IMG/VR virus record: IMGVR_UViG_3300006077_000002
Coordinates: 29,818-93,817 of that record
Origin: a virus
Reading direction: 5' to 3' (one strand)
Length of the DNA stretch: 64,000 bases
Positions 29,203-61,926 of the stretch are shown one piece after another (the first letter of the stretch is position 1; the number at the start of each line of letters is the position of its first letter). Below the pieces are notes generated by a model. The model was not told where the DNA came from, did no database searches, and saw only the letters and a list, made by a program, of their open reading frames with translations. A program made the translations under genes and the position numbers.

Positions 29203-29580
29203 ATGATGGAATTATCAGAGACAATTAGAGTTAAGTACGCTTCAGGGCTGTACTCAAATACAGAATTGGTGCTAGAATACAGCCCTTTGGTTGGTGCTAT
29301 GAAGGTACTGGAGATATTAAACTATGCGGTGGATAAAGATGTGCGTCCTGACCTACAAGGTATCATTGAGGACATGCCTAAAGTGCATACGATAACCTCT
29401 TTATACCATCGAGAGCTTCGTGAGAGTCATACACAGATTGAAGGAACCACTGAGACAACTGCTTGGAAAGACCGTGAGTTTGCAATTGATAAGCGTAGGT
29501 TAGACTTTAAGCTACGAGAAGAGTTGAGAGCGTATCCTTGGGTAACCCCAGATGTCTTGTCAAAGCTATATCATGACTAA
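29203..29580 (+). CDS. Hypothetical protein (C-terminal LSKLY tag)
   Basis: AAGGAG RBS; 125 aa. Confidence 0.7.
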   Translation: MMELSETIRVKYASGLYSNTELVLEYSPLVGAMKVLEILNYAVDKDVRPDLQGIIEDMPKVHTITSLYHRELRESHTQIEGTTETTAWKDREFAIDKRRLDFKLREELRAYPWVTPDVLSKLYHD

Positions 29581-30148
29581 GACCTGTACCAAATGTGGTG
29601 TTACAGCCACAGGTCAGGGCCAGATAATTAAAGAATTCGTTAAGAGTTCTGGGTATAAGTACGGGATAGAAGCTACGTGTAAGCGTTGTCATAACCTAGG
29701 GAAGACTGCCAATGATGTTGTTGGCCCATACTCACTCCTTACGGAGAAGCCTAGCCCTAAGGTATGTGCTTGTTGTGGTAAGGAGAGCTATGTATATGGT
29801 AGAGACTTCCGCCATGTTAGGTCAACCAGAGCAAGTTCCTCAGCATATCTTCCTATATGTAAGGGATGTGAGCAGGTTGCTTGCTTGGTATTGGGAGAGT
29901 TTCAACACTTAATACGTGAAGGTAAACACCTGGAAGGTGGACCAGAAGACCCTTGGTATAAGGAGCTGTTATCAGCCTTCTATTTAATGACGTTGGGTCA
30001 TATACCAGACCGTGATGTACTGAGCTTCCCAGCTCGCTACGCATTACCAAATGGAACGCCGTGTGTACGGTCAGCAAAACGCATCTGGCAAATCAAGCTT
30101 GATGTTGGTTATTCTCAAAAGGAGATTGTAGATGAAAGTGGATTCTAA
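29573..30148 (+). CDS. Zn-finger protein (two KxCxxCG...CKxC units)
   Basis: KTCTKCG..CKRC and KVCACCG..CKGC; start refined to the ATG at 29573. Confidence 0.65.
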   Translation: MTKTCTKCGVTATGQGQIIKEFVKSSGYKYGIEATCKRCHNLGKTANDVVGPYSLLTEKPSPKVCACCGKESYVYGRDFRHVRSTRASSSAYLPICKGCEQVACLVLGEFQHLIREGKHLEGGPEDPWYKELLSAFYLMTLGHIPDRDVLSFPARYALPNGTPCVRSAKRIWQIKLDVGYSQKEIVDESGF

Positions 30149-30569
30149 TATTGTAGGTACGGATGGTTCAGATAAACTGTTGCCAAACTTTACTGAACTC
30201 GAAACTAAGATACTGGTGGCCAGCCTAGAGGGCGGCTCAACAAAACAAATTGCGGCTATGCTTAGGGTTCCCCCTACGTTCATCCGTACGTTCTTGAACA
30301 AGGGGAAGGTTAAAGAATACCTTAGAGAACAGAAAGAACTGGCCGCAGAATTAGTACAGCTTAAGATTCAAGAGCTTCTTACTGGAGTTGTTGAACAGCG
30401 TATTGAAGAAGCGGATGGTGATATGTCAAAGATAACTAAGAAGGATACTCTTGAAGTTATTAAGGTGTTGCAAGACATCAGCTCTGGAATTGTTAAAGGT
30501 GCCCAGAAGAGTGAGAGCGAGGATAAGTATGCTGCTATCCTTGGGTTGGTGATGAAAGATGAGGACTGA
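30132..30569 (+). CDS. terS: Terminase small subunit (T5-like)
   Basis: N-terminal HTH, VKEYL, RIEEA...TKKDTLEVI and C-terminal KYAAILGLV resemble T5-type TerS. Confidence 0.65.
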   Translation: MKVDSNIVGTDGSDKLLPNFTELETKILVASLEGGSTKQIAAMLRVPPTFIRTFLNKGKVKEYLREQKELAAELVQLKIQELLTGVVEQRIEEADGDMSKITKKDTLEVIKVLQDISSGIVKGAQKSESEDKYAAILGLVMKDED

Positions 30570-30738
30570 GTGGCAGGACTTTGTCCGCTCCAATTATAAG
30601 GTGATGACAGTTGAGCATATGGCTTATCTCTTGGGTGTTACCCGCACAGAGATACTTCAGGAGTTTCCTATGCTTCAAAGAAATAGTCCAGATAGAAGTA
30701 TTCAAACACTGGTAATTATTAGGCCTAGACATGACTAA
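30559..30738 (+). CDS. Small HTH-like protein (59 aa, not in ORF track)
   Basis: MRTEWQDFVRSNYKVMTVEHMAYLLGVTRTEI...; overlaps both neighbours. Confidence 0.5.
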   Translation: MRTEWQDFVRSNYKVMTVEHMAYLLGVTRTEILQEFPMLQRNSPDRSIQTLVIIRPRHD

Positions 30739-31507
30739 GAGACAGCGTTGGGTTTACAACTATAAGTCCCCCGTCCCTCGTTTAGGAAAGGAAGGTGCTG
30801 GAATAGAACCACCTCTAATAGTTCCTGGAGTTGAACAGTTGATATGCCTAGGCTGTGGCACTGAGATTAATATCCTTAGAGCTAAGAGTAGGTTCAAAGA
30901 TGATACCAATCGTATGCTGAAGACATTCTCTGGGTTCTACCCTAAGCAGCCTGAGGCTTGTGCATGTGACCTTATGGAAATTGAGGTTAGTCTTGAGGGT
31001 CAGCTCACAGTACGGTCAGACAGCCCAGAACTAATTAGGTGGCAGGTACGAAGTCCTAAGGGGTTGGTCCTTACGCTTGCCCGTTCATTGGGAAATGATA
31101 TTCCTACATACATCTCCCCACCACTGGAGGAGTATTCCAAAACTGTGTACAAGAATCCCAAATGGGAAATCGAGATGTTAGACCACTTGGATATGCACCA
31201 GTTCAAACCTAAGGAGCGAGAGGTTGTACTGCCAGGCACTGATGCTGACAGAGATTTCTTCCTTCGTTGTTATGCCTACACCTACAAGGTGTGTGTCTCA
31301 GAGAACCAAAGTACATACCTACCAACAGGTCATAGGGTTTCTTACAATCCTGACCTTAAGGGCGAGAGGTCTTACCCAGAACACCTCATAGCCAACCTTC
31401 ACCTTCGTTCCCTCTCGCCCCTGCGGTTAGAACTTGAAGGAATAACAGACCCTTTCCATAGGGCAAACCTCACACTGCAATATGCTAAAACTTTGAGGGT
31501 TCCATAA
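30731..31507 (+). CDS. Hypothetical protein (possible Zn-binding)
   Basis: 258-aa ORF with CLGCG and CAC. Confidence 0.6.
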   Translation: MTKRQRWVYNYKSPVPRLGKEGAGIEPPLIVPGVEQLICLGCGTEINILRAKSRFKDDTNRMLKTFSGFYPKQPEACACDLMEIEVSLEGQLTVRSDSPELIRWQVRSPKGLVLTLARSLGNDIPTYISPPLEEYSKTVYKNPKWEIEMLDHLDMHQFKPKEREVVLPGTDADRDFFLRCYAYTYKVCVSENQSTYLPTGHRVSYNPDLKGERSYPEHLIANLHLRSLSPLRLELEGITDPFHRANLTLQYAKTLRVP

Positions 31508-31604
31508 CCTCCCCCAGAATAACCTCCCCCAGAATAACCTTAGGGGAACCCCCAGAATAACCTTAGGGGAACCCCCAGAATAACCTTAGGGGAACCTTAG
31601 GGGA
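31503..31604. repeat. Short tandem repeats CCCCCAGAATAACCT(TAGGGGAA), candidate genome-end/packaging repeats
   Basis: Four near-identical units directly visible. Confidence 0.85.
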
Positions 31605-31691: not shown

Positions 31692-32675
31692 GTGTTACTA
31701 ATAGTTACACCTCTGTTACCTTTCGTAACACTTCAACAATTCTTTTCCTATTTAAGCAAGACTTAAGAAAGAACTCACCTCAGAAACTCCTTATATTTAA
31801 TATAAGTGTTACCATTCGTAACACAACAGAAATAAACAGGTGTACCTAAGGTCACGCTTAAGGTCTATCGAAGGTTACATCTGAGTGAAAAATTCTTTTT
31901 GTGCTTTAAGCATATCTTAAGGAAGAACTCGCATAGGCTAAAAAGAGGCTCCTTCATAACATACCTTCAAATAAGCTTAAAGTCTAAATGATAATGATTA
32001 TCATAGTCACTTTCATTTCACTTTTTGACTCTTAAAAGGGTAAAAAATACACCCCTAAAAACAGGGCTATAAACGCCCTAAAATCGCTTAAAGGCACGAA
32101 AAAACGGTATGAATATATTGATGTACTAAACAGCGTTATACACGTACAGACCCCTTAAAAGGCTTTTAAAGGTGATAATGATAATCAATACGGACTGTAT
32201 AACTTTTAACCAATTTGTTGTATAAAAAGTAATCAATAAGAAAAACTTATACTGATAACGATAATCAATACCATAAAGGGACGGCACGCTAAATGATAAC
32301 GATAACCAAAATCAAAACCAAAGGACTCCTAAAGTTAATTGATAACGATACTCAATATCATAACCGCTATTCTAATTGATAATGATAACTAATATCATAA
32401 CCAAAGGACTCTAAAGCTAATTGATAACGATAACCAAAATCAAAACCAAAGGACAATAAGGGCTAATTGATAATGGTTATCACTATCAGAACACTTTAGG
32501 TCACGCCCTAAATGATAATGACTATCAATATCGCCCCTGAGAACTCTTCTAATTGATAATGATTATCACTATCGCACCCCTGAAGTAGGACTAAATGATA
32601 ACGATTATCAATACGGCTAGTGACGATGAAATTCCAAATTAAAGCGTCAATTCAGGGTGTTACGAAAGGTAACAC
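31692..32675. promoter_or_regulatory. Four copies of palindrome GTGTTAC-N5-GTAACAC (31692, 31713, 31806, 32657)
   Basis: Direct inspection; 0-1 mismatches per copy. Confidence 0.7.
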
Positions 32676-32797
32676 AACAGAAAAAAACATTGCTTGAAAA
32701 AGGCGATTTAAGCTTAGATTAAGAAAGAAGTGGGTACTCTCGCACGTTGCGTGTTTCTATATACTTTTTAAGGGCAACTAAATGAGAATGATTATCA
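31989..32797. promoter_or_regulatory. Array of 12 Fur-box-like 7-1-7 palindromes (TGATAAY-G-ATWATCA)
   Basis: Starts at 31989, 32173, 32253, 32294, 32340, 32377, 32422, 32468, 32513, 32554, 32596, 32783; two are perfect TGATAATGATTATCA. Confidence 0.8.
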
Positions 32798-32943
32798 ACT
32801 GAAAGTAATCTTAAGAAAAAATATTAATTTAAAATCCATAGGAAACTCTTTTTTATACACGTTATAATTTCGACGTTCCAAATATGAAGATTGATTTTTA
32901 ACTTTTCTCTTTGGACGTGATTTTTTAAAACGTGAAACAAATG

Positions 32944-34814: not shown

Positions 34815-34816
34815 TT

Positions 34817-40100: not shown

Positions 40101-40365
40101 GTTATTGGTTATTAGTAAGAAGAATATCTTATGCCACGCTGTTTGGGTAACTAAGGCTAAGTTATGGGTTATTTCTCCAGTAGAATATGAGAAATACCAA
40201 GACTTTGGGCACAGCAAACTTCGTCCTAGTATTGGAAGTGAGTACCCAGTCCTTGAAGATTTTATAGGTAGACCCTACGACACAGTTGATAAAAGGGATA
40301 TTTGTAAGGACAAAGAGTATTCAAAGTATGTTAGTTTAGGAGAGATTTATGGCGAAAATACTTAG
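40093..40365 (+). CDS. Small protein, paralog family A, LxxIY tag
   Basis: CHAVWVTKAKLWVI; ends SLGEIYGENT. Confidence 0.7.
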   Translation: MDKLLVISKKNILCHAVWVTKAKLWVISPVEYEKYQDFGHSKLRPSIGSEYPVLEDFIGRPYDTVDKRDICKDKEYSKYVSLGEIYGENT

Positions 40366-40621
40366 AGTTAAGGTGGTGAGACGGTACGACCAATTAAAAG
40401 CCAGCAATGAGGAAGTTTATCAGGCCGTAAAGAAAAGTAAAGATAACAATTACTACTTACTGCTTCTTGAAAATGGTCTTGGTTGGACTCTTGGAGAAAC
40501 TGAAGCTAAACATATACTGGGTGGAGGCATGAAAGAGTGGGTTGGGCGGAAAGTCTATAATGTTCCTGGGAGTAGGCTTGAGTTTTTATCACAAGCACCT
40601 TTGAAGGAAATTTATGGCTAG
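40349..40621 (+). CDS. Small protein, paralog family B, LxxIY tag
   Basis: Ends PLKEIYG. Confidence 0.7.
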   Translation: MAKILRVKVVRRYDQLKASNEEVYQAVKKSKDNNYYLLLLENGLGWTLGETEAKHILGGGMKEWVGRKVYNVPGSRLEFLSQAPLKEIYG

Positions 40622-40892
40622 TGTTATCTTGGTGTTATACAAAGATGTGGTATGCTATGCAAAATGGATTGAAACTGCAGAATGTTGGGTGTTAGTTACG
40701 AGAGACCCTGCAGAGATTAAAAAACTTGTATATTCTAGCTCTCAATTATCTGATAGAGATGGAGAAATCCACGACATCCCAGAGATATTTTTGAATAGGG
40801 CTTATTTTACATTAGCTAAGAAATATCTATTTGCATATAACACCATTAAAAAAGTTTACTGTTTGGAGGAAATTTATGATAGTACACATTAA
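40614..40892 (+). CDS. Small protein, paralog family A, LxxIY tag
   Basis: CYAKWIETAECWVL; ends CLEEIYDSTH. Confidence 0.7.
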   Translation: MASVILVLYKDVVCYAKWIETAECWVLVTRDPAEIKKLVYSSSQLSDRDGEIHDIPEIFLNRAYFTLAKKYLFAYNTIKKVYCLEEIYDSTH

Positions 40893-41133
40893 AATAATCA
40901 AAAAATTTGACTCTTTACATAGGGGTACAGAAGTATTTAAAGCTGTAGCTCATGGAGGTGGAAGCCAATATATAGTATTACTTGATGGGACAGACTATAG
41001 AGGTTGGATATTATCATCATTTGATGCCTCTGGTTTTGGGGTGGAAGAATGGGGAGAGCTTGAAGTATACAGCGTACCAGCAGATTACATTGAAGTACTT
41101 AAAGAAAACCCTTTGAAGGAGATTTATGGTTAG
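40876..41133 (+). CDS. Small protein, paralog family B, LxxIY tag
   Basis: Start refined to the ATG at 40876 (GGAGG RBS); ends PLKEIYG. Confidence 0.7.
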   Translation: MIVHIKIIKKFDSLHRGTEVFKAVAHGGGSQYIVLLDGTDYRGWILSSFDASGFGVEEWGELEVYSVPADYIEVLKENPLKEIYG

Positions 41134-41383
41134 ATTAGTTAAAGACCACGACCAGCTTGAAGCTGGGCCAGAGGTATACAAAGAGATAGCTCAGGATGGA
41201 GAACATAGAAGTTTTATAATTCTTCTTGAGGATATTACAGATATAGGGTGGAGAATGCCTCCAAATCAAGCCAGAGAGCTTGGAGTTCCTGAATGGACAA
41301 ATAAGAGATGTTACTATGTTCCTGAGCACAAACTTCACTTCGTGGAACATGAACCACTTAGCAAAATTTACGAACTGCGATAA
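41126..41383 (+). CDS. Small protein, paralog family B, LxxIY tag
   Basis: Ends PLSKIYELR. Confidence 0.7.
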   Translation: MVRLVKDHDQLEAGPEVYKEIAQDGEHRSFIILLEDITDIGWRMPPNQARELGVPEWTNKRCYYVPEHKLHFVEHEPLSKIYELR

Positions 41384-41505
41384 CTTTCTTTTAAGGTTTA
41401 TACTAGGATTTATCACCTAGTACCTTAAGAGTACCTTAATAGGAATAATTCTTAAGGTTTACCTCTATGTTTTTCCCTTCGGCCTAACTAATAGTATTAT
41501 ATGTT

Positions 41506-41629: not shown

Positions 41630-41902
41630 ATGGATGAACTTATGGTTACAGTTATAGATATGGGAGGTACTACCCTAGCGGTAAGACTACAAGTAAGAGC
41701 CCTACTAGCAGAGCATGGAGAAGCAGTCTATGAATCTTCTACTGTTTGGACAGAGGCATTCAAAGAGCCTACTAACCAATACATAGGTAGAAGTAATAGC
41801 AAGTGGATGGGAATTGGCTCTCATCATAAGGATGAAAGCATCCATGCCACAGAGTTCTTGAGACGCTTTGGCAAATTTAAACTAGGAGAAATTTATGGTT
41901 AG
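41630..41902 (+). CDS. Small protein, LxxIY tag
   Basis: Ends KLGEIYG. Confidence 0.7.
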   Translation: MDELMVTVIDMGGTTLAVRLQVRALLAEHGEAVYESSTVWTEAFKEPTNQYIGRSNSKWMGIGSHHKDESIHATEFLRRFGKFKLGEIYG

Positions 41903-42930: not shown

Positions 42931-43215
42931 ATGGCTAATCATAAAAGAGTAAAGGTACTAACCGATAGAGATGGATTTACTCAAGGATATATTTACAAGG
43001 CATATCCAGGGCATGACCCCAATGCAGATTGGGTAGTAATTATGGACAATCCAGATAATTTACAAGGTTGGTTTCTTACAGAAAACCTTGGGCATACATC
43101 ACTTACCTTAGATGACTTTGAGGAAAGTGATAGAGGTAAGAAAGGTTGGTATGTATCACCAGTATTTCTTGAAATAGTTTATGTAAATATGCTTAAAAAT
43201 ATTTACGAGGAGTAG
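42931..43215 (+). CDS. Small protein, family B-like, LxxIY tag
   Basis: GGAGG RBS; ends MLKNIYEE. Confidence 0.7.
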   Translation: MANHKRVKVLTDRDGFTQGYIYKAYPGHDPNADWVVIMDNPDNLQGWFLTENLGHTSLTLDDFEESDRGKKGWYVSPVFLEIVYVNMLKNIYEE

Positions 43216-44960: not shown

Positions 44961-45179
44961 ATGGAACAGTTTAAAGTTGGGCAGTCATTAAGAAGAACTG
45001 GTCAAGGGAACTTAGATGCAAGCACATTTGCTGATGTTGAGGGGAGATTATACACTGTCTTTGAAGTACTTCCACTTACATACAAAGTAAAAAGTTATAA
45101 GGGAATCACTAAGTTCTCTAAAGACTATGCCCATAAAATATTTTCACCACAGATATCACCACTTACTAACATATACTAA
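44961..45179 (+). CDS. Small SH3-like protein, LxxIY tag
   Basis: FKVGQSL start; ends SPLTNIY. Confidence 0.65.
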   Translation: MEQFKVGQSLRRTGQGNLDASTFADVEGRLYTVFEVLPLTYKVKSYKGITKFSKDYAHKIFSPQISPLTNIY

Positions 45180-45603: not shown

Positions 45604-45918
45604 GTGGTTGGCATGGCTAACTCACTCATAGAAGCATATGAAAAGCACACAGCTTTTCACATACTAACAAAGGAAATCACAGATGTTAAACTATTTGTAA
45701 AAAATCATAGGGAGTTTAAAAGATACACAAAAAGTCTTTTTAAAGATACACGTACTGACCCTTCAAGTGCTTGTGAAGAACACCTTAAAGATTACAAATT
45801 TTTTATAGCCTATAAAGAGACGGAGGATATCTATACATTTTATTTTTCAAACCTCACAAGAGGAGAGAGAGTAAACTTTGCTTCAAGTGTTTTGAATAGC
45901 ATCTATGACCAGTCCTAG
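45604..45918 (+). CDS. Small protein, LxxIY tag
   Basis: Ends VLNSIYDQS; start uncertain. Confidence 0.6.
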   Translation: MVGMANSLIEAYEKHTAFHILTKEITDVKLFVKNHREFKRYTKSLFKDTRTDPSSACEEHLKDYKFFIAYKETEDIYTFYFSNLTRGERVNFASSVLNSIYDQS

Positions 45919-53504: not shown

Positions 53505-53751
53505 AAGAACACTGATACTGAATAGAGGTATTGCCAGCACCTTTTACGATGCTAATGATATTCGTAGAAGCATCCTGGCATATAAGTTTATTCATGGACT
53601 TAAAAAAGGTGCTGGTATACTTTATCATCATGCTACTGGAGGTAGCACAATACTAACTGCGGAGGAAGTCCTATCATTACTGCGTAAGAAAGACCCACAA
53701 GTTACTTTGTTTGGTAAATCAGACTCTGTACTATCAGGTATATACAAATGA
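53491..53751 (+). CDS. Small protein, LxxIY tag
   Basis: Ends VLSGIYK. Confidence 0.6.
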   Translation: MHGSKRTLILNRGIASTFYDANDIRRSILAYKFIHGLKKGAGILYHHATGGSTILTAEEVLSLLRKKDPQVTLFGKSDSVLSGIYK

Positions 53752-54059
53752 AACCACTATACACTCTAACTATCTTAAGAGGATGGAGAGAGGCTGAAGA
53801 GTACTATAAAAAGTACCCAGAAGAGAAGACCTTTGAGGCTTATACCTTTATAATTAACCAAAGGCTTTATAATTTAGGGGCATTTAGATGTGCTGACCGT
53901 ATAAAGTATGGTACACAAAGAATGTACAACAGTGTCATCAAATCTTATAAAGAAGGGTTACGCAGTAATTCTGAGATACTTATTGGAGGCAAGAGAGTTG
54001 CTCTTATTGTAGATAAGAGTAGAAGTACTAAAAATATTCTAAGGAAATTATATGAATAA
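53748..54059 (+). CDS. Small protein, LxxLY tag
   Basis: Ends ILRKLYE. Confidence 0.6.
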   Translation: MKPLYTLTILRGWREAEEYYKKYPEEKTFEAYTFIINQRLYNLGAFRCADRIKYGTQRMYNSVIKSYKEGLRSNSEILIGGKRVALIVDKSRSTKNILRKLYE

Positions 54060-55407
54060 ACTACGTGGAGGAATCCAGTTAGTAAATCCCCCAGCAGAAT
54101 TATTGGAGAGATTAACTTACCCCAACCCCTTTGAACCTGACCAAGAATTTCTTGGGTATAGAGATGATGGTGCTGGTAAAGTTACTGTTCCAAGAAAATC
54201 TATTGATATCTCTCCTGATATTGTTGATGTTACAACCAGCCCTATCAGTATAGGTATCAAAAGTAGCTTCTCGTTAAGAGATTATCAAATCAAACCTGTA
54301 AATAAAATTACTAGTCTCTTAACTGGAGGCTATAATCAATGCCTTCTAACTGCACGAACTGGGTCTGGAAAATCATTCAGTCTTGGGTTCATCATAAAGG
54401 ATATTGGAGAACGTACCCTAATTTTGGCACACTTATCAATGCTTACAACTCAGATGGCTGATGAGTTATCAGAGAATCTTGATGCTGATGTTCGTATCAT
54501 TGATAAAGATAACCAAGAGTTAGGTGATGTTAATATCTGTACCTTTCAGTATCTACATGCCAACCCTATGCTAACCCTACAGTTAGCCAAAGAGATAGGC
54601 TTTGTAGTTGTTGATGAGGCAGAGAATATGCTTAGTCCAAGTAGACTTAATGTATTCTATTCGCTTACTCCAAAGTATCAACTACTTATGACAGCAACTC
54701 CTAGCCGTGACCTTGTTGGTAGAACACCAATGATTACAGAACTAATTGGAGATGCCATTGTAGTTATGGAGCCTACCAATGAAATTGTAACAACACCCGC
54801 AATGTTTGATTACAGACATCTAAAATTCCATGCACCAACTAACAAGATGATGTATAAAGGAGCGTTGACTAGATTCTTTTTGCAAAGTTCAATACCTGCT
54901 GATATTGTAGGTGTAGTAGGCATGCTGTTAGAGTATGAGGGTTGTGTATGGGTTATTATAGACAGTCTTAAATTCCAAGATAAAATGGTGGAGTTGTTTG
55001 CCGCTCAGGGGGTAGGAGCAGAGGTAATTCGTGGAGCTACCTCAACCAAAGAACGGAAACGTATTCTTGCTAATGTTGAGAGTGGAGATTGTAGAGTACT
55101 ACTTGCATCTGCACCTCTATCTGCTGGTATATCAATGCCAGAACTTGCTCATGCATTTAGAGTTATGCCTCATAGTTCAGGACATGAGCTTCTTACACAG
55201 CAAAGAGGTCGTCTTAAACGGTACTCAGAGTTCAAAGACTACCAACCTACTATCTGGTTTGACTATGCCATAGAGGGTTCTCTGGCATGGACAGGCAAGA
55301 AGAGATTCAAAAGTTACAAAGAGGAAGAAGGATTTCTATTCGGAAGCTTAAGTACTATTAAAGCAAAAGTTAAGGAGTTATTAGATGACAAACAAAGAAA
55401 AAATTGA
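54052..55407 (+). CDS. Superfamily 2 helicase
   Basis: LRDYQ, ARTGSGKS, VVVDEAE, LMTATP, QQRGRLKR. Confidence 0.9.
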   Translation: MNKLRGGIQLVNPPAELLERLTYPNPFEPDQEFLGYRDDGAGKVTVPRKSIDISPDIVDVTTSPISIGIKSSFSLRDYQIKPVNKITSLLTGGYNQCLLTARTGSGKSFSLGFIIKDIGERTLILAHLSMLTTQMADELSENLDADVRIIDKDNQELGDVNICTFQYLHANPMLTLQLAKEIGFVVVDEAENMLSPSRLNVFYSLTPKYQLLMTATPSRDLVGRTPMITELIGDAIVVMEPTNEIVTTPAMFDYRHLKFHAPTNKMMYKGALTRFFLQSSIPADIVGVVGMLLEYEGCVWVIIDSLKFQDKMVELFAAQGVGAEVIRGATSTKERKRILANVESGDCRVLLASAPLSAGISMPELAHAFRVMPHSSGHELLTQQRGRLKRYSEFKDYQPTIWFDYAIEGSLAWTGKKRFKSYKEEEGFLFGSLSTIKAKVKELLDDKQRKN

Positions 55408-55654
55408 TAAGTTAAGTAAACAGGACTATGTTCTTCGTGGGTATAGTGAATGGTACCTAGAGCTATATCAAAATGCTGGAGGAAATTGGAAAGATTATAA
55501 TTCTGACATAGCTGCAGGAGCTAGAAGACGTTACCAAAGCTATAAAGAGATTGGTAATGGTTTAGTATATGCTAGACAAAGGCTTTCAAAATACATGAAA
55601 AGTATTGTGTCAGTACACAAATCACCATTAAAGGGAATTTATGAGAGTAAGTAA
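55385..55654 (+). CDS. Small protein, LxxIY tag
   Basis: Ends PLKGIYESK. Confidence 0.65.
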   Translation: MTNKEKIDKLSKQDYVLRGYSEWYLELYQNAGGNWKDYNSDIAAGARRRYQSYKEIGNGLVYARQRLSKYMKSIVSVHKSPLKGIYESK

Positions 55655-55928
55655 GTTTAAGAAAGGGCAAAAAGCTCGGGTAAAAAGTCTGGAGAAATTA
55701 AAAAGAGATGCTGAAGAAATTAAAAGTTCAGGAGCATTTCGTATGAAAGACAGAATGCACATTGTAGACCGTATGTTTAGCCTGTGTGGGCAAGTAGTAA
55801 CTATTAAAACAATAGTAGCTCCTGAAGACCCTCAAGGGTATTACTTAATTGATGAAGACACTGCAGGATATAGTTGGTCTGACAGTTTATTGGAAGACCT
55901 TGCACCTTTGAAGGAGATTTATGGCTAG
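55641..55928 (+). CDS. Small SH3-like protein, LxxIY tag
   Basis: FKKGQKARVKS...LCGQVVTI...WSDSLLE; ends PLKEIYG. Confidence 0.7.
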   Translation: MRVSKFKKGQKARVKSLEKLKRDAEEIKSSGAFRMKDRMHIVDRMFSLCGQVVTIKTIVAPEDPQGYYLIDEDTAGYSWSDSLLEDLAPLKEIYG

Positions 55929-56142
55929 TTGGACACAAAAACAACCTGATTTATGGGAATTATTAGATGCTGATGTGGCATTTATAGAGTATCTTAACAC
56001 CTTACGTCCCAGACTCTACCACAAAGCTATCATATTCAGACTTAATACTCTGATTGATGGGGTAGATGAGGCTAAAGATAGATATCGTAGAAATGCGATA
56101 GAATTATACCACAATAATCTTGTGGCATTAAGCAAAGTTTAA
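55921..56142 (+). CDS. Hypothetical protein
   Basis: AAGGAG RBS. Confidence 0.6.
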   Translation: MASWTQKQPDLWELLDADVAFIEYLNTLRPRLYHKAIIFRLNTLIDGVDEAKDRYRRNAIELYHNNLVALSKV

Positions 56143-56150: not shown

Positions 56151-56687
56151 ATGGTAAAGTATATAATCGTAAGCATATTTATGGTATGTAGTATGCATGC
56201 TCAGAGTTTGACAGATGAGTTTCTTCAAATGAGTGACAAACAGGTTGAGTCATTAACCTTTGCTCATAATCAAGGAGGCTATACACTGGCTGCAATTGCT
56301 TGGACAGAGTCACATGCTGGTAAAGTGCGTATAAATTTAAATGTTGGGTCAGTTGACTTAGGTTTATTTATGTTAAATTCTAAATCATTTCTTGAGAGAT
56401 GGTATAAAGCTCACCCAGATAAAACACGCAGTCATTACTACGACAACATATTGTTGAGTAGAGTAATGACTGATGATAGTTTATCAAGTATCTACGCTCA
56501 AAAGGAGCTAGATTATTGGAAGACTATGCGAAATCGTAACATCCGAGATACGATTAAAAGCTACAATTGTGGCTCAAATATTCAGCGGCATAGATGTGAT
56601 AAGTACTTTAGAAAAGTATGGGATAGACGTAAAGTCTTGATACAACATCTACAAGTGGAAAACTACTGGTATAAGGATAGACCATGA
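56151..56687 (+). CDS. Secreted lytic transglycosylase (SLT-like)
   Basis: Signal peptide; LAAIAWTES, DLGLFMLN, IKSYNCG. Confidence 0.8.
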   Translation: MVKYIIVSIFMVCSMHAQSLTDEFLQMSDKQVESLTFAHNQGGYTLAAIAWTESHAGKVRINLNVGSVDLGLFMLNSKSFLERWYKAHPDKTRSHYYDNILLSRVMTDDSLSSIYAQKELDYWKTMRNRNIRDTIKSYNCGSNIQRHRCDKYFRKVWDRRKVLIQHLQVENYWYKDRP

Positions 56688-56911
56688 GAAAGATTAATTA
56701 CAATGAACGAGCAGTAAAAGCAATCATTCAATTACTTACAGAACAAAATGCAGTATTTGGAATGCATGAGGAGAGTATTGAAATTGAGGCAACAAAAAGA
56801 AATGAGGACATGTTATTTAAAGAGCTCAATAGAATTGTGGCTGGCACTAAATATATGGTGCAAAAAGATATCAAGTCCGTAATCATTACAATATTTAATG
56901 GAAGTGTGTGA
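56684..56911 (+). CDS. Hypothetical protein
   Basis: ATGA coupling. Confidence 0.6.
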   Translation: MRKINYNERAVKAIIQLLTEQNAVFGMHEESIEIEATKRNEDMLFKELNRIVAGTKYMVQKDIKSVIITIFNGSV

Positions 56912-57210
56912 TGAGAAAGCAGGGTTCAAAAGTACAGGTAATTCATCGAAGTGAGTTATTTAGCAGAACTAGCAGTGCTGTAATGATTAGTGGTGTGAAA
57001 TGTCTCAATATCAGAGAAAGTTACCAAATGTTTGTACCATCTATGGATAGGATGCTTGGTAAAGTTGCAACCATAACTTTAGCTACTACGTATCATGGTG
57101 TGCCAGTGTATGCTATTGAAGGCTCAAGTGATTGGTGGTCAGAACAGATGTTTGCACAGAACACTAGACTTCGTTCTTTATACGCTCGTAAAGGAACTAT
57201 GGATGACTAG
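56908..57210 (+). CDS. Small SH3-like protein, LxxLY tag
   Basis: FVPSMDRMLGKVATI...WWSEQMF; RLRSLYA near the end. Confidence 0.65.
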   Translation: MMRKQGSKVQVIHRSELFSRTSSAVMISGVKCLNIRESYQMFVPSMDRMLGKVATITLATTYHGVPVYAIEGSSDWWSEQMFAQNTRLRSLYARKGTMDD

Positions 57211-57442
57211 AACAATTATAAGCCGAAAGGTTTGGGAAGAAAAACAACGAGATGAGGACACTTGTGGGTGTGGTTATCATATGCCTAGAGCCATGAAGCG
57301 TTGGGCTGATACTACACATGAGGTAAAAAGTTCCAGAGAGATTATGAAGTCTACTGTATTTAAGTTTAGCGACATAGATAGCTGGGAATTTTGTGCGTGT
57401 CTATTAGTGGATGCATCAATACTAAAGGGGATTTATGATTAG
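57203..57442 (+). CDS. Small protein, LxxIY tag
   Basis: Start refined to the ATG at 57203; ends ILKGIYD. Confidence 0.6.
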   Translation: MTRTIISRKVWEEKQRDEDTCGCGYHMPRAMKRWADTTHEVKSSREIMKSTVFKFSDIDSWEFCACLLVDASILKGIYD

Positions 57443-59984
57443 TGAGTTATTTGGAAATAAACAAGAGGATGTACTGCAGGTTATTGTATGTGGTGCTAAA
57501 CAATATAGCTTTGCCAAGTTTATAGGACAAAATTTTGTAACTCCTATGAAAACTTTAGGCATTCAAAACTTCGGTAAGACTATGCAGACTGTGCAAGCAT
57601 TTGAAAATGCTGACAAGAAGAAGCCAACTAAGAAACAATTAAAGCCTCATATTGATGAGTTGCTTGAGCATTGTGACCTTTATGGAATTGAATTCTTGGC
57701 AGTAGCTAACGCAAACTATTTTGCATATCTTACTGGTAAGAAATTTGAGCAGAGTATAGGCTCTAAAGTTATGTGTTCGGTGAAGGGATTTGAACACATT
57801 GTAGTTATACCATTGGTAAACCCTGCGGTAGTATCAATTACCCCAGCAAAAAGACCATTGATGCAAAGAGGGTTGCAAGTGTTCCATGATATTATGGCTG
57901 GAACATATACCTCAAGTACCTTTGAGTTCGAGAGTTATGAATTTGTTACAAACCCTGATAGAGCTCGTGAGTTACTTGATGGCTTAAGAACTCTTGAAAG
58001 AATTGCTTGGGATATTGAGACAACTGGACTTCACCATATGACTAGCGACTTCATTACTCATGGCTTTGCTAAAGATACGAATAATGCTTTCACCATAGCA
58101 GTACATCCAAAACATGTGGGTATGGCTGTTGCAGAGGAGATGAAGAAAGTTGTTGGTGATTTCCTTACAACTTACCAAGGTAAATTGTTAGTACACAACG
58201 TAGGCTTTGAGGGTAAATACCTTGCTTGGAATTATTGGATGAAAGATGCTGATGACCAACAAGGAATTGTAGATTGTTTCAAACACACTAAGTGGGATGA
58301 CTCAATGCTACAAGCATATGCTCTCTTAAATTCTACAGAGCGTACATCACTTGGACTTAAAGATTTGGCTCATGATAAGTATGGCGATTGGGATGCAGAC
58401 ATAGACATTAAGAATGCTATTGATGCACCTATTGAAAAGCTTGCTTACTACAATGCCATTGATGTTAGTGCAACTTGGTATGTGTGGAACAAGATACAGG
58501 CACAAATTACAGAGAAACAGTTTGAGTTTTATGATGTTACTATGCGTTTAACTCAAAATCTATTCTTGAAGTTAATGCTGACAGGTATTCCAATCAGCAT
58601 GGACAATGTTCTTTCCGCAAAGAAAGACTTGACAGTAGCCTTAGATGAAGCTGAAGAAAACTTCTTTACAAATCCATATGTACTTATGGCTGAGAAGCAG
58701 TATCGTATTGACTTGGCTGAGAAGTATAACACAACTCATAAAGTTGCGAGAAAAATTCCAGAAGACTTTAAAGACATTAAGTTTAACTATAACTCACCAA
58801 ACCAGTTAAGAACACTGCTGTTTGAGATGATGGATTATGAACCGATTGCCTTTACTGACAAAGGATTCCCATCAACTAACCGAGCGTCAATTGTAGAGTA
58901 CTCAGAAACTGAGTTAGATACTGACAAGAAGAATGTATTGGAAGGGCTAATTGCATTCTCAGAGATTGGTATTATCCTTAATACATTCTTAAAGAGTTTT
59001 GAACGTGACTCAATTGAAGTAAGTCCTGGAGAATTTAGACTCTATGGAAACTATAAGAATGGTGGTACTCAAACATTCAGACCAACAGCTAACAATCCGA
59101 ACTTACTTAATGCCCCTAGTGGGTCTAAGTATGGGAAGCTTATTAAGCATTGTTTCAAAGCACGACCAGGATTCATCATTGGGTCAAGTGACCACGCCAG
59201 TCTTCAGGGACGTACAGCAGCTAACTTGACAAAGGATGCTAACCTTATTCGTTTGTATAATGACCATATTGATATGCACTCATTTCACGCCACTCGTTAT
59301 TGGCCTGAAGCATTCAGCGATTTTGAAGACACTGTTGAGTATTATGCAGAAGTAAAACATACACACCCTGCAGAGCGTAACCGTTCTAAGGGGCCAACAT
59401 TCCTTATGCAGTTTGGTGGTGGTGTTGCAAAACTTGCAGCAACATTGAAGTGTAGTGTGGAAGAAGCAGAAGTTATTTACAATGCCTACCATAACGAGCT
59501 ATACCCAGACATGAAGAAGTATAATGAAAGAGTTGGGCAACAAGCCCTTAGAGATGGATTTGTTGAGCTAGGACTAGGACTTAGACTTCAATGTCCAAGT
59601 GTTCGCTCTCATGATAAGCAAACAGCAAGTTCAGCTTTACGTTCAGTAGCTAATGCAACTGTACAATTTTGGGATGTACTAACACTTATCGGGATTGAAA
59701 GATTCCAACAACATATAGAGGAGCAAGGATATGTGGGAAAAGTTATTATGCACTCAACTATCTATGACTCTGTTTATATGGAGATTGCTGCAGATACGGA
59801 GACAATCCAATGGGTCAATGAAACATTAATCCCTGATATGGTTCAAGATTATATGGATGACCAAGAGGTAAAACTTGAGGCTAACCTAGACATTACTGCT
59901 GAAGAAGGGACGTGGGCTGACCTACAAGAACTTCCAAATGGAGATGCCAAAGCAGAGATAAAGGAGATACTATCGAAGAGTTAA
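57435..59984 (+). CDS. Family A DNA polymerase (N-terminal UDG-like region, 3'-5' exonuclease)
   Basis: WDIETTGL, HNVGFE, YNAID exonuclease motifs; NYNSPNQL, GTQTFR..NPNLLN; motifs A/B/C with substitutions. Confidence 0.93.
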   Translation: MISELFGNKQEDVLQVIVCGAKQYSFAKFIGQNFVTPMKTLGIQNFGKTMQTVQAFENADKKKPTKKQLKPHIDELLEHCDLYGIEFLAVANANYFAYLTGKKFEQSIGSKVMCSVKGFEHIVVIPLVNPAVVSITPAKRPLMQRGLQVFHDIMAGTYTSSTFEFESYEFVTNPDRARELLDGLRTLERIAWDIETTGLHHMTSDFITHGFAKDTNNAFTIAVHPKHVGMAVAEEMKKVVGDFLTTYQGKLLVHNVGFEGKYLAWNYWMKDADDQQGIVDCFKHTKWDDSMLQAYALLNSTERTSLGLKDLAHDKYGDWDADIDIKNAIDAPIEKLAYYNAIDVSATWYVWNKIQAQITEKQFEFYDVTMRLTQNLFLKLMLTGIPISMDNVLSAKKDLTVALDEAEENFFTNPYVLMAEKQYRIDLAEKYNTTHKVARKIPEDFKDIKFNYNSPNQLRTLLFEMMDYEPIAFTDKGFPSTNRASIVEYSETELDTDKKNVLEGLIAFSEIGIILNTFLKSFERDSIEVSPGEFRLYGNYKNGGTQTFRPTANNPNLLNAPSGSKYGKLIKHCFKARPGFIIGSSDHASLQGRTAANLTKDANLIRLYNDHIDMHSFHATRYWPEAFSDFEDTVEYYAEVKHTHPAERNRSKGPTFLMQFGGGVAKLAATLKCSVEEAEVIYNAYHNELYPDMKKYNERVGQQALRDGFVELGLGLRLQCPSVRSHDKQTASSALRSVANATVQFWDVLTLIGIERFQQHIEEQGYVGKVIMHSTIYDSVYMEIAADTETIQWVNETLIPDMVQDYMDDQEVKLEANLDITAEEGTWADLQELPNGDAKAEIKEILSKS

Positions 59985-60210: not shown

Positions 60211-60585
60211 ATGCTTAGCAATTTACATATTATTGAAATACCTACAGATGCATATTCTGAAGTAGCAAAGTTAGTTAATTTTCTGGAAGAAACACCAGAC
60301 AATGTCAATGAAGAGATGGTTCGTGATAGTATTTCTGCTTCTACTAGAAGTGGGAAGCTACTTAATGGGATGCACCATCTCTATTATAAACCATCATTAG
60401 TTCAGAAGAATACTGCACCAAAAATTGAGGCAGGAGGAGATGGCTATTGGCTATGGAATGACCCTCCAAACCCTAACTATACTAAGGTTATGTTTCAAAA
60501 AGCATTAGAGATAATGGAGAAATCAGCAGACACTAAAGACTTCTTATCCATACTTCAATCGCCTATAAGAACATTATATGCATAG
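60211..60585 (+). CDS. Small protein, tag variant
   Basis: AGGAG RBS; ends PIRTLYA. Confidence 0.65.
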   Translation: MLSNLHIIEIPTDAYSEVAKLVNFLEETPDNVNEEMVRDSISASTRSGKLLNGMHHLYYKPSLVQKNTAPKIEAGGDGYWLWNDPPNPNYTKVMFQKALEIMEKSADTKDFLSILQSPIRTLYA

Positions 60586-60922
60586 AGGATACTTTATTAC
60601 AGGAGTTCCAAAAAATCTAAAAGCTTTTATGAACTTGTTAAAAGGGCTTGGAGATGATGGATATACAGATAAAGAGTTGTGCAAAGAGGCTTTAGGAGAT
60701 TTGGAAGGAGAATATATGGTAGTCTATGATGATACCACAGGCTCTGATGAATGCTATTGGCCTTGGAGTACCGACACTTGGGAAGAGTATGAGGACTCTT
60801 ATGAATTTGATTCTACAGAATACAAACTTAAACATATAGACTATTATCAGGTGTGCAGAAAGCACAACATTAAAATCCCTAAGAAGTATCGTAGAAAGAT
60901 ACTATCAGAGATATATTTCTAG
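60578..60922 (+). CDS. Small acidic protein, LxxIY tag
   Basis: Ends ILSEIYF. Confidence 0.65.
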   Translation: MHRGYFITGVPKNLKAFMNLLKGLGDDGYTDKELCKEALGDLEGEYMVVYDDTTGSDECYWPWSTDTWEEYEDSYEFDSTEYKLKHIDYYQVCRKHNIKIPKKYRRKILSEIYF

Positions 60923-60935
60923 GAGAAAAAAGAAT

Positions 60936-61610
60936 ATGACCACTAAACAATTAAAAATAACTTCGGCTAACTTAGCTGAAGACTACCCACTAACTTCTCA
61001 ATTTGTGAATGGTATCTATGGCTTAGCTAAAAAGCTTAGCTACCAGATAGCAACAAACAAAGCTGTAGATAGTCATGATGACTTCTTTCAAATCATGTTG
61101 GTTGAAGCCTGTAGGCTTGAGCCAAAGTTTGACCCTGATAGAGGGACAAGTTTCTACTCATTCATTAACAGACCTTTAAGAGCAAAGATGTTTAAAGAGT
61201 TCATTGATGTTGACCGTGGCGGAGATAACTACAAGAAGATTAAAGAGTTCATCAAAGGGTACCAAGCAGATAAACATATATTTCCATCAGTGGAAATTAT
61301 CAGTGATGAGCTTGATATCCCATCCGATGTAGTTCGCCTTGATTATTATGGCAAGACACAAACAATCAGTGTTGATGATTGTGATGACTTGTTATTATCT
61401 GACGAGGTTGATGGGGTGAACCCAATGGACTATGTCAAATACCTTGAGCCTATAGAGCAGTTGGTAATCAGCTTACTCTATTCTGAAATACCTGAGGATA
61501 TGGCTGATGTATTTACGAGACAGTACTTAATGATTACCCAAGAAACTTTGGAAGAAATCAGAGACATCTCTCTAACCAAACTTAAGGGGTTAATAGATGC
61601 AGAGGATTAA
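60936..61610 (+). CDS. Phage sigma70-family (FliA/WhiG-like) sigma factor
   Basis: DDFFQ...KFDPDRGTSFYSF region 2; PSVEIISDELDI region 3; LEPIEQLVISLLY region 4. Confidence 0.8.
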   Translation: MTTKQLKITSANLAEDYPLTSQFVNGIYGLAKKLSYQIATNKAVDSHDDFFQIMLVEACRLEPKFDPDRGTSFYSFINRPLRAKMFKEFIDVDRGGDNYKKIKEFIKGYQADKHIFPSVEIISDELDIPSDVVRLDYYGKTQTISVDDCDDLLLSDEVDGVNPMDYVKYLEPIEQLVISLLYSEIPEDMADVFTRQYLMITQETLEEIRDISLTKLKGLIDAED

Positions 61611-61926
61611 TGACAAGGAAGTTTATAAACTCCTCAAAAAGGATATACAAATTAGACTGAATAACAAAGAGGAGGTAAAAGAATTCTTAAAAGCTATGTA
61701 TGAAATTGTAGCAGAAAACGGTGGTACTACCTTTGGCTCTGCCGATGGAAATAGTTATGGACGTAAGTTTATAGAGGATATAAGTGACAGAGAGTATCCA
61801 ACTTACATCTATAGAACAGACAGAGCACTATTTCAGACAGCAAGAGGAAACGACCACAACTTTACACTGCCAGAAATTAAAAGTAAATTTGCAGTAGCAA
61901 AACCATTGGGAGGTTTATATGATTAA
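61597..61926 (+). CDS. Small protein, LxxLY tag
   Basis: Ends PLGGLYD. Confidence 0.65.
   Translation: MQRINDKEVYKLLKKDIQIRLNNKEEVKEFLKAMYEIVAENGGTTFGSADGNSYGRKFIEDISDREYPTYIYRTDRALFQTARGNDHNFTLPEIKSKFAVAKPLGGLYD

What the first reader, a model, noticed from the sequence alone, without database searches (positions are those of the whole stretch)
29203..61926. About 20 small proteins from several unrelated families share a C-terminal L-x-x-[IL]-Y tag
Seen (gene start, ending): 29203 VLSKLYHD; 39834 VLGVLYG; 40093 SLGEIYG; 40349 PLKEIYG; 40614 CLEEIYD; 40876 PLKEIYG; 41126 PLSKIYE; 41630 KLGEIYG; 42931 MLKNIYE; 44961 PLTNIY; 45604 VLNSIYD; 53491 VLSGIYK; 53748 ILRKLYE; 55385 PLKGIYE; 55641 PLKEIYG; 56908 RLRSLYA; 57203 ILKGIYD; 60211 PIRTLYA; 60578 ILSEIYF; 61597 PLGGLYD. 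Twelve could be by-products of an overlapping RBS and start codon (AAGGAGATTTATG). In at least seven (29203, 41126, 42931, 44961, 53491, 56908, 60578) the Tyr codon forms no ATG, yet the motif persists with different codons. Coupled genes at 34817 and 37205 end in Y without the Leu/Ile pattern. Inference: a short linear docking motif or degron directing a variable set of small effectors to one shared partner, i.e. a modular phage adaptor system.
Basis: partly seen in the sequence, partly recalled or inferred. Interest (0 to 1): 0.85.

Follow-up and report, generated by a model that had tools for sequence, protein, structure and literature searches.

The report
Shared tail doubling as gene junction
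In an uncultured 94-kb phage, about a third of the small early proteins, from at least 17 unrelated families, end in the same short Leu-x-x-Ile/Leu-Tyr tail; in two thirds of them the tail's DNA also carries the ribosome-binding site and start codon of the next gene, yet that double use does not fully explain the tail, so it may be an address tag whose reader is unknown.

Summary
18 of 130 proteins of this phage end in [LI]-x-x-[IL]-Y with 0-3 further residues, against 0.4 expected. All 18 are 72-125 aa and lie in two early/replication gene modules.

The same 17-nt junction recurs as a ...L-K-E-I-Y-G-stop junction in at least 4 unrelated phage families elsewhere, so a single tail can arise as a coding by-product.

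That does not explain the whole set:
- The phage's stand-alone ribosome sites, read in the same frame, give the motif in 1 of 59.
- Other phages give it in 2 of 620 ORFs.
- Six tails without any such overlap exist against 0.25 expected.
- Pro precedes Leu in 10 of 22 tails.
- One gene module with similar overlaps has no tails.
- The tail is invariant in a paralog family and in its only outside homolog.
- AlphaFold places the tail outside the fold.

My reading, at about 50%, is a disordered C-terminal recognition peptide fused with the coupling signal. No reader was found. At about 33% it is a pure by-product with relics.

This scan has noted similar shared tails on other phage DNA (AI notes, untested here).

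The parts
29557..29580 (+). Tail of gene 29203-29580 (125 aa); the Tyr codon is not part of a start codon
40080..40100 (+). Tail of gene 39834-40100 (family A); Tyr TAT supplies the AT of the next ATG, 8-nt overlap
40336..40365 (+). Tail of gene 40093-40365 (family A); coupled, 17-nt overlap, 4 residues after Tyr
40601..40621 (+). Tail of gene 40349-40621 (family B); coupled, 8-nt overlap; lies inside the 28-nt junction repeat 40595-40622
40863..40892 (+). Tail of gene 40614-40892 (family A); coupled, 17-nt overlap
41113..41133 (+). Tail of gene 40876-41133 (family B); coupled, 8-nt overlap
41357..41383 (+). Tail of gene 41126-41383 (family B); uncoupled, followed by a 246-nt ORF-free gap; SD residues replaced and Tyr is TAC, but Pro, Leu, Ile and Tyr are kept
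41882..41902 (+). Tail of gene 41630-41902; coupled, 8-nt overlap
43192..43215 (+). Tail of gene 42931-43215; uncoupled, next start 52 nt downstream, Tyr is TAC
45162..45179 (+). Tail of gene 44961-45179; Tyr (TAC) is the last residue; the next gene's SD begins at the stop codon and its start lies 9 nt downstream
45892..45918 (+). Tail of gene 45604-45918; uncoupled; a 9-bp hairpin (45919-45939) follows and the next gene starts 137 nt downstream
53731..53751 (+). Tail of gene 53491-53751; the next gene overlaps by 4 nt in the other phase, so Tyr (TAC) is not part of the start
54039..54059 (+). Tail of gene 53748-54059; coupled by 8 nt to the helicase gene 54052-55407
55628..55654 (+). Tail of gene 55385-55654; coupled, 14-nt overlap
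55908..55928 (+). Tail of gene 55641-55928; coupled, 8-nt overlap; lies inside the 28-nt junction repeat 55902-55929, which matches 40595-40622 at 27 of 28 nt while the flanks are unrelated
57169..57210 (+). Gene 56908-57210: motif 8 residues from the end; doubtful member
57422..57442 (+). Tail of gene 57203-57442; coupled by 8 nt to the family A DNA polymerase gene 57435-59984
60565..60585 (+). Tail of gene 60211-60585 (Ile at the first position); coupled, 8-nt overlap
60902..60922 (+). Tail of gene 60578-60922; Tyr is not part of a start; the next gene (sigma-like, 60936-61610) starts 13 nt downstream
61906..61926 (+). Tail of gene 61597-61926; coupled by 8 nt to the ThyX gene 61919-62515

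Best explanation
The tail has two layers. Layer 1 (shown): in 12 window genes, and 2 more elsewhere on the genome, the last 6-10 codons are also the translation-initiation region of the next gene. The two x codons are the Shine-Dalgarno sequence read as Lys-Glu, Gly-Glu or similar. The Ile/Leu codon is the 4-nt spacer. TAT plus a following G-initial codon holds the ATG, and the stop follows 5-14 nt later, so each gene hands ribosomes to the next. Layer 2 (inferred): the amino-acid pattern Pro/Val-Leu-x-x-Ile/Leu-Tyr is itself under selection. It most likely acts as a disordered C-terminal recognition peptide that lets many unrelated small early proteins be read by one common partner, whether a docking site, an adaptor or a protease/unfoldase. 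Fusing the tag with the coupling signal would make each small gene a self-contained cassette.
For: The enrichment is 18 of 130 against 0.41 expected, and is confined to small + strand proteins. The overlap does not produce the pattern by itself. The phage's own 59 non-overlapped ribosome sites, read in the same frame, give Tyr in 30, but Ile/Leu-Tyr in 3 and the full motif in 1, against 13 of 41 overlapped junctions (Fisher P 2e-5). At the same 4-nt spacing, stand-alone sites use the I-Y-coding spacer in 1 of 9 against 5 of 9. In other phages, none of 23 unbiased junctions and 2 of 620 ORFs have the motif. Six tails without such an overlap exist against 0.25 expected (P 2.7e-7). In them the SD is gone and Tyr is TAC in 4 of 6. 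Two of them end transcription-unit-like blocks. Leu codon choice differs between the two sets: CTA, TTG or TTA and never CTT when coupled, CTT in 3 when uncoupled. Both sets still encode Leu. Pro precedes Leu/Ile in 10 of 22 tails (8 of 17 independent families; background 3.4%), and none of the 4 outside L-K-E-I-Y-G junction families has it. The tail is module-specific: 0 of 19 small genes at 34.4-39.5 kb, although overlaps of the same kind occur there, against 11 of 20 and 9 of 13 in the two other modules. In family B (35-39% identity), Leu, Ile and Tyr are invariant in all three paralogs and in the only outside homolog found among 1.84 billion representatives. AlphaFold models of families A and B have confident cores (pLDDT 70-88), while the last 7-8 residues fall below 50 with no secondary structure.
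Against: No reader was found. Two thirds of the tails are confounded with the SD and ATG, and Tyr is never replaced by Phe or Trp, which is what an origin in T-A-T-G predicts. The exact 17-nt junction recurs at ORF ends in at least 4 unrelated phage families elsewhere, so convergence by coding constraint is real. T at the middle position of the Leu codon is already common upstream of stand-alone SDs, 47% against 65%. Two junctions share 27 of 28 nt between unrelated genes, which points to DNA-level copying. In the three truly uncoupled tails, Tyr is followed by a G-initial codon, as a decayed T-A-T-G would be. A disordered tail is also what a read-through into the next gene's ribosome site would look like. 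Only one outside homolog exists, without its DNA.
Confidence: 0.5

Rival explanations
1. Pure coding by-product plus history. The phage uses a stereotyped overlapping junction: SD read as Lys-Glu, a 4-nt U-rich spacer, and ATG inside Tyr-Gly/Asp/Glu. The junction spread by paralogy and by short-homology recombination at gene boundaries. The tails without an overlap are relics of former junctions in which the now harmful internal SD and ATG were removed. The peptide itself does nothing.
For: 12 of the 20 listed tails are the next gene's initiation region. The same 17-mer forms ...L-K-E-I-Y-G-stop junctions in at least 4 unrelated phage families elsewhere. Overlapped junctions favour SD spacings of 4 and 7 nt, which read the SD as Lys-Glu and avoid an in-frame TAA and rare Arg codons. 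A 28-nt junction repeat lies between unrelated genes, and four junctions share 17-20 of 21 nt. Tyr is strict, with no Phe or Trp. Tyr is followed by a G-initial codon in uncoupled tails, and TAC in 4 of 6 fits selective loss of the ATG. C-terminal codon bias caused by overlapping starts is documented (PMC7246954).
Against: Stand-alone ribosome sites of the same phage do not encode the pattern (1 of 59). Pro before Leu has no ribosome-site rationale and is absent from the outside junctions. In the relics the SD has decayed completely, while Leu, Ile/Leu and Tyr survive with synonymous changes. Three tails (44961, 53491, 60578) sit in a different register to the next gene's SD and start, so they cannot be relics of the standard junction. 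The module at 34.4-39.5 kb has overlaps of the same kind but no tails. Other phages show no enrichment (2 of 620).
Confidence: 0.33
2. The tail acts in cis on the ribosome. The last residues of the nascent chain, or their codons, slow termination and so favour re-initiation at the nearby start of the next gene.
For: 19 of 22 tails have a downstream start within 17 nt upstream to 13 nt downstream of the stop, including three where Tyr is not in the start codon. This phage is unusually rich in 8-nt overlaps, which make up more than half of its 41 overlaps in this phase, and it has about 7 times more long in-phase overlaps per kb than other phage loci.
Against: The distance from Tyr to the stop varies from 0 to 4 residues. 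Three tails have no nearby downstream gene. The motif extends 6-7 residues back and includes a Pro, with no known stalling signature. No experiment or precedent was found.
Confidence: 0.07
3. The tail is an intrinsic structural element of each protein, for example a terminal amphipathic turn that packs on its own fold or mediates self-association, and it has converged because the forced Lys-Glu needs hydrophobic neighbours.
For: The i, i+3, i+4 spacing of Leu, Ile/Leu and Tyr suits one face of a helix. In other junctions of this phage, hydrophobic residues also flank SD-encoded residues (K-E-I-V-D, K-E-L-L-D types).
Against: Both AlphaFold models leave the tail unstructured and detached, with pLDDT below 50, although the alignments were shallow. 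Pro directly before Leu and only 5-6 residues are too few for a packing helix. Unrelated folds would not need the same residues.
Confidence: 0.05

Closest known systems
Translational coupling through overlapping stop/start with the Shine-Dalgarno sequence inside the upstream gene, and the C-terminal codon bias this causes (Weber et al. 2020, PMC7246954)
   Same: SD, spacer and ATG of the next gene lie inside the last codons of the upstream gene. The C-terminal residues are partly dictated by them.
   Different: The overlaps here are mostly 8 nt rather than the usual 4 or 1. The same peptide recurs on at least 17 families. It also occurs without any overlap, and it includes positions (Pro, Ile/Leu) that the ribosome site does not dictate.
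HbYX docking tails (hydrophobic-Tyr-X at the extreme C-terminus) of proteasome activators, and the C-terminal tails of HslU that plug into HslV (my own knowledge; the lead was also seen in scan note e1-800511)
   Same: 13 of 22 tails end exactly in Ile/Leu-Tyr-X-COOH on a disordered tail.
   Different: The carriers are small unrelated proteins, not ring ATPases. 9 tails have 0 or 2-8 residues after Tyr. The phage has no proteasome/HslV gene and no Clp/Hsp100 ATPase gene. Binding was not shown.
Encapsulin cargo-loading peptides and the capsid-targeting sequence of T4 internal proteins (my own knowledge)
   Same: One short terminal peptide is shared by unrelated proteins and read by a single partner. 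The tail is disordered and appended to folded domains.
   Different: The genes lie in early/replication modules on the strand opposite the capsid genes. The sequence is different, and no shell binding was tested.
Sliding-clamp binding motifs (bacterial Q-L-[SD]-L-F type; T4 gp45-binding C-termini) (my own knowledge)
   Same: A short hydrophobic/aromatic C-terminal peptide on many unrelated proteins, and a similar length.
   Different: There is no Gln, the spacing differs, and the aromatic is strictly Tyr rather than Phe. The phage has no clamp gene, and the polymerase is family A.
PeSL-type cassette boundaries of T4-like phages (Arbiol, Comeau and Krisch 2010; my own knowledge and scan note e1-5783529)
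   Same: Short repeated DNA lies exactly at boundaries of small early genes. Here that is a 28-nt junction repeat between unrelated genes.
   Different: No promoter or stem-loop is part of the repeat. Most junctions differ in codon choice, so DNA homology is limited to a few of them.

Membership tests
Overlap-type translational coupling junction | SD-like sequence 4-9 nt upstream of the downstream start, inside the upstream ORF | tested here: met
   12 window tails plus 2 elsewhere on the genome have AAGGAG, GGAG or AGGA at spacings of 4-7 nt
Overlap-type translational coupling junction | The downstream start codon lies inside the upstream ORF and is the true start | tested here: met
   Overlaps are 8, 14 or 17 nt. 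Paralogs of families A and B align from Met1 at these ATGs
Overlap-type translational coupling junction | Translation of the downstream gene depends on the upstream one | not testable with these tools
   Needs reporter or ribosome-profiling data
HbYX proteasome-activator tail | Hydrophobic-Tyr-X as the last three residues | tested here: inconclusive
   Met in 13 of 22 tails; 9 have 0 or 2-8 residues after Tyr
HbYX proteasome-activator tail | Carried by a ring ATPase or dedicated activator, and read by a 20S or HslV-type ring | tested here: not met
   The carriers are 72-125 aa orphans without AAA domains. No PF00227 or PF07724 match in the phage. The host was not examined
Bacterial clamp-binding motif | Q-L-[SD]-L-F-like consensus with Gln at position 1 and Phe at the aromatic position | tested here: not met
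   No Gln, strict Tyr, different spacing. No clamp gene in the phage
ssrA/ClpX-type C-terminal degron | Non-polar last residues of the L-A-A-COOH type | tested here: not met
   The last residues are mostly Gly, Asp, Glu or Lys. No stability data exist
Encapsulin-type cargo-loading peptide | A disordered terminal peptide shared by unrelated cargo proteins | tested here: met
Encapsulin-type cargo-loading peptide | Cargo genes associated with the shell gene, and the peptide binds the shell interior | tested here: not met
   The tail genes lie in the + strand early/replication modules, while the capsid, portal and head-protease genes are on the minus strand. Binding was not tested
Cassette-boundary repeat (PeSL-like) | The same DNA repeat at many gene boundaries, with a promoter and stem-loop | tested here: not met
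   Only 2-4 junctions share 17-28 nt. No promoter or hairpin lies in the repeat

The most novel reading that the evidence does not exclude
The tail is a portable C-terminal address, Pro-Leu-x-x-Ile/Leu-Tyr-X-COOH, which is HbYX-like in form. It plugs at least 17 unrelated small early proteins into one reader, for example a host protease or unfoldase ring, or a partner of the phage's own second ClpP-like protease. It has been fused with the translational coupling signal, so each accessory gene is a swappable cassette that is both self-expressing and self-addressing.
Probability: 0.3. Interest if true: 0.8.

Novelty: new variant of a known kind. Interest (0 to 1): 0.6.

Why it matters
Small early phage proteins are the main unexplored pool of host-takeover and anti-defence factors, and almost all are orphans with no clue to function. 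If a third of them in one phage carry a common address tag, one pull-down with an 8-residue peptide could reveal the hub they act on. Tags of this kind would then become a sequence-only way to recognise functionally linked orphan genes. This case is also a caution. The same peptide can be written by a ribosome-binding site and a start codon, so claims of shared tags need the controls used here. If both layers are real, it is a compact example of dual coding in which expression coupling and protein addressing share the same 20 nucleotides.

Tried and rejected
- **Relatives by DNA or protein.** No match in cultured phages for the array, the enzyme block, or three tail proteins. There was no close relative in IMG/VR for the polymerase, the 440-aa protein or P0015.
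- **Relatives via the neighbouring gene.** Profile searches with the 56151-56687 neighbour found only loci at 27-36% identity.
- **Homologs of two tail proteins.** 60578 and 55641 have none apart from themselves.
- **Family searches.** PHROGs gave at most weak unknown-function matches for tail proteins. Pfam was run on the larger proteins and on the two tail genes upstream of the window, which gave no match.
- **Fold searches.** Models of families A and B gave nothing significant.
- **Atlas look-ups.** The 440-aa and 519-aa neighbours gave no hub candidate.
- **Complex prediction.** Three copies of the phage ClpP-like protein with a family B protein returned 'no answer'. This is evidence neither way.
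- **Exact 20-nt junction.** No hit in IMG/VR.
- **Terminal helix packing on the fold.** Rejected, because both models leave the tail disordered.
- **Generic property of this phage's ribosome sites.** Rejected.
- **Literature.** Three full-text searches found no description of such tails.

Full report
**Context.** The window is bases 29818-93817 of a 93.8-kb IMG/VR phage record with direct terminal repeats.
- A minus-strand structural block holds the terminase, portal, head protease, major head protein and several proteins over 1000 aa.
- From window position 29.2 kb onward, a + strand run of tightly packed genes follows. It holds many small orphans, a GluRS-like enzyme, an M28-like peptidase, a helicase, a family A DNA polymerase, a sigma-like protein, ThyX and an RNA ligase.
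- The first 23 kb of the genome, outside the window, holds more + strand replication genes.
- No cultured phage is similar at the DNA level. The polymerase is about 30% identical to N4-like phage polymerases.

With my own gene model of 130 genes:
- 18 proteins carry [LI]-x-x-[IL]-Y with at most three residues after Tyr.
- The same pattern occurs only 22 times in the roughly 28,000 internal positions, so 0.41 C-terminal cases are expected.
- Shuffling the last 30 residues of the 89 proteins whose C-terminus is not overlapped in this phase gives a mean of 0.36 and never more than 4.

All 18 are 72-125 aa on the + strand. None of 61 larger proteins and none of 12 small minus-strand proteins has the motif.

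Three listed genes are looser. 40093 and 40614 have four residues after Tyr, and 56908 has eight. Two further cases lie upstream of the window, between the ligase and DnaB-like genes.

**Are the families unrelated?** All-against-all blastp finds only two paralog families of three members each, interleaved in one array:
- A = 39834, 40093, 40614
- B = 40349, 40876, 41126

Identity within each is 28-39%. With the tails cut off, hhalign finds no relation between A, B and nine other tail proteins. About 17 independent families therefore carry the tail, within the limits of shallow profiles.

**How much is the next gene's ribosome site?**
- 41 gene junctions in this genome have the downstream ATG starting at codon position 2 of the upstream frame. 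The overlaps are 8, 11, 14, 17 nt and so on, and 8 nt is the commonest.
- In that phase the overlapped codon must be N-A-T, which encodes Tyr, His, Asn or Asp. Tyr appears in 18 of the 41, and 13 of these carry the full motif or its Val variant.
- In these junctions the x-x residues are the SD read as Lys-Glu, Gly-Glu, Lys-Gly and the like. The Ile/Leu codon is the spacer, and a G-initial codon follows Tyr.
- Overlapped junctions prefer SD spacings of 4 and 7 nt, whereas stand-alone sites peak at 5 nt. Spacings of 4 and 7 nt read the SD as Lys-Glu. They avoid an in-frame TAA and rare Arg codons, so coding constraint explains the x-x residues.
- T in the middle of the Leu codon is also fairly common upstream of stand-alone SDs, 47% against 65%.
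- The by-product route is demonstrably open. The exact 17-nt junction occurs in 32 IMG/VR contigs. In about 21 of them it sits at the 3' end of an ORF that reads ...L-K-E-I-Y-G followed by 0-2 residues, with the ATG opening the next ORF. These represent at least four unrelated protein families of about 256, 73, 69 and 156 aa.
- C-terminal codon bias caused by overlapping starts is established (PMC7246954).

**What the overlap does not explain.**

1. *The phage's own stand-alone sites.* I translated its 59 non-overlapped ribosome sites in the same frame. Tyr appears in 30, because T precedes ATG in about half. Ile/Leu-Tyr appears in only 3 and the whole motif in 1 (Fisher P 2e-5, or 2e-5 again when paralog families are counted once). 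At the same 4-nt spacing, stand-alone sites use the I-Y-coding spacer in 1 of 9 against 5 of 9. Within the overlapped set, Ile/Leu precedes Tyr in 13 of 18 but precedes Asp, Asn or His in 3 of 23.
2. *Other phages.* 23 junctions of the same kind in 33 unbiased phage loci have no motif. Only 2 of 620 ORFs there end in it, which is the chance rate. In the loci found through the 17-mer, no other junction carries it.
3. *Tails without the overlap.* Taking the overlapped tails as the discovery set and the other 89 C-termini as the test set, six tails are found against 0.25 expected (P 2.7e-7). A seventh, 29203, has the motif one codon upstream of the overlapped start. In these tails the SD is gone: the x-x residues are Ser-Lys, Lys-Asn, Thr-Asn, Asn-Ser, Ser-Gly and Ser-Glu. 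Tyr is TAC in four.
   - 41126 is followed by a 246-nt ORF-free gap, 45604 by a 9-bp hairpin, and 42931 by a 52-nt gap.
   - 44961, 53491 and 60578 do have close downstream starts. Their motif is in a different register to that SD and ATG, so they are not decayed copies of the standard junction.
4. *Leu codons.* Coupled tails use CTA, TTG or TTA and never CTT, the commonest Leu codon, because the third base abuts the SD. Uncoupled tails use CTT three times. The nucleotide context differs, but the amino acid is the same.
5. *Pro before Leu.* Pro precedes Leu/Ile in 10 of 22 tails, or 8 of 17 independent families, against a 3.4% background. C is the rarest base at those positions in stand-alone sites, and none of the four outside L-K-E-I-Y-G families has Pro.
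6. *Module specificity.* None of 19 small genes at 34.4-39.5 kb has the tail, although overlaps of the same phase occur there and read Glu-Asn-Tyr and Glu-Tyr-Tyr. In contrast, 11 of 20 small genes at 39.8-45.9 kb and 9 of 13 at 53.5-61.9 kb have it. So it is not simply this phage's way of building ribosome sites.
7. *Conservation in family B.* Only 13 alignment columns are invariant, and Leu, Ile and Tyr of the tail are among them. This includes 41126, which has lost the SD and ATG. It also includes the single outside homolog (P0015, E 2e-9) found among 1.84 billion representatives, which ends ...L-K-S-I-Y-E.
8. *Structure models.* AlphaFold models of A and B have confident cores, but the last 7-8 residues have pLDDT below 50 and no secondary structure. 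This rules out a packing helix, though it fits both a linear motif and a mere read-through extension.

**Evidence pulling the other way.**
- Tyr is never Phe or Trp, even in uncoupled tails, as an origin in T-A-T-G would predict.
- In the three fully uncoupled tails, Tyr is still followed by a G-initial codon.
- The junctions at 40595-40622 and 55902-55929 are 27 of 28 nt identical between genes whose flanks are unrelated. Four junctions share 17-20 of 21 nt. Some junction DNA has therefore been copied or kept at synonymous sites.
- A relic model is possible, in which a now harmful internal SD and ATG are purged while the flanking residues linger. It cannot be excluded without relatives.

**Search for a reader.**
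- The phage encodes a ClpP-like protease in its replication module, next to a PhoH-like gene. This neighbourhood is shared with at least two cultured phages. It is distinct from the head-maturation protease.
- The phage has no proteasome/HslV gene, no Clp/Hsp100 ATPase gene and no sliding-clamp gene.
- A complex prediction of the ClpP-like protein with a family B protein returned no answer, which is not evidence either way.
- Atlas, Pfam and PHROG look-ups of the large unknown neighbours gave no hub candidate.
- In form, 13 of 22 tails match the hydrophobic-Tyr-X C-terminal rule of proteasome-activator tails. The other defining features are not met, so this is a resemblance and not membership.

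**Verdict.**
- About two thirds of the tails are physically the next gene's initiation region, and such a tail can arise without any protein-level function.
- The set as a whole shows several independent signs of selection on the amino acids themselves.
- I put about 50% on a genuine disordered C-terminal recognition peptide merged with the coupling junction, and about 30% on the specific claim of one shared partner.
- I put about 33% on by-product plus relics and junction copying. The rest goes to a cis effect on termination and re-initiation or an intrinsic structural role.
- The scan has recorded comparable shared tails on other phage DNA (notes e1-1182513, e1-1182514, e1-5411460, e1-5660268 and others, notes e1-5783529 and e1-355942). 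Those are AI notes I did not test, so I do not count them as support.

Noticed in passing
window 40595-40622 and 55902-55929: A 28-nt junction (tail, SD, ATG, stop and the first codons of the next gene) is identical at 27 of 28 nt between two gene pairs 14.8 kb apart. Their flanks and proteins are otherwise unrelated. This suggests recombination or conversion at gene boundaries.
   Followed up: partly
L034:8780-9478 (genome coordinates, upstream of the window): A second ClpP-like 'ATP-dependent protease' (phrog_1827, E 2e-39) sits in the replication module near a PhoH-like gene, in addition to the head-maturation protease at window 24665-25774(-). The PhoH-ClpP neighbourhood recurs in Pseudomonas phage vB_PsaM_M1 and Curvibacter phage P26059A.
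   Followed up: partly
window 39834-41383: Six genes form an interleaved tandem array of two unrelated paralog families, in the order A A B A B B. All are about 85-92 aa, and five of the six are chained by 8- or 17-nt overlaps. Neither family matches a known fold.
   Followed up: partly
whole genome: Overlaps with the start at codon position 2, mostly 8 nt long, are unusually frequent. There are 41 junctions, about 0.4 per kb, against about 0.05 per kb in 33 other phage loci. The usual 4-nt and 1-nt overlaps number 30.
   Followed up: partly
window 51787-53016: The GluRS-like enzyme (409 aa) ends in Pro-Pro-Leu-Lys-Glu-Leu-Leu, with a 4-nt ATGA overlap. This is the same Pro-Leu-Lys-Glu start of the tail read with a different spacer, on a large enzyme.
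   Followed up: no
L070 and L057 (IMGVR_UViG_3300005573_001079 and IMGVR_UViG_3300027863_001119): Two unrelated low-GC phage contigs have a tandem array of large paralogs (115-587 aa). Each ends in Ile-Gly-Gly-Glu-Val-Tyr-Val-Glu/Lys, with the next start inside the Tyr codon. This is another hydrophobic-SD-hydrophobic-Tyr junction.
   Followed up: no
window 31526-31596: A 25-nt motif occurs three times at a 23-nt period, all copies exact, in the ORF-poor region between the first + strand genes and the iron-box-like repeat array at 31984-32803.
   Followed up: no
window 45919-45939: A perfect 9-bp hairpin with a 3-nt loop lies directly after the stop of gene 45604-45918, followed by a T-rich stretch. 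It is probably a terminator closing this block of small genes.
   Followed up: no
window 41424-41457 and 41550-41589: The 246-nt gap after 41126 contains TTAAG-rich repeats and a TATAAT box. The nearest TTTACA lies 28 nt upstream, so it is not a canonical sigma-70 promoter. It may be a phage-specific promoter or operator in front of 41630.
   Followed up: no
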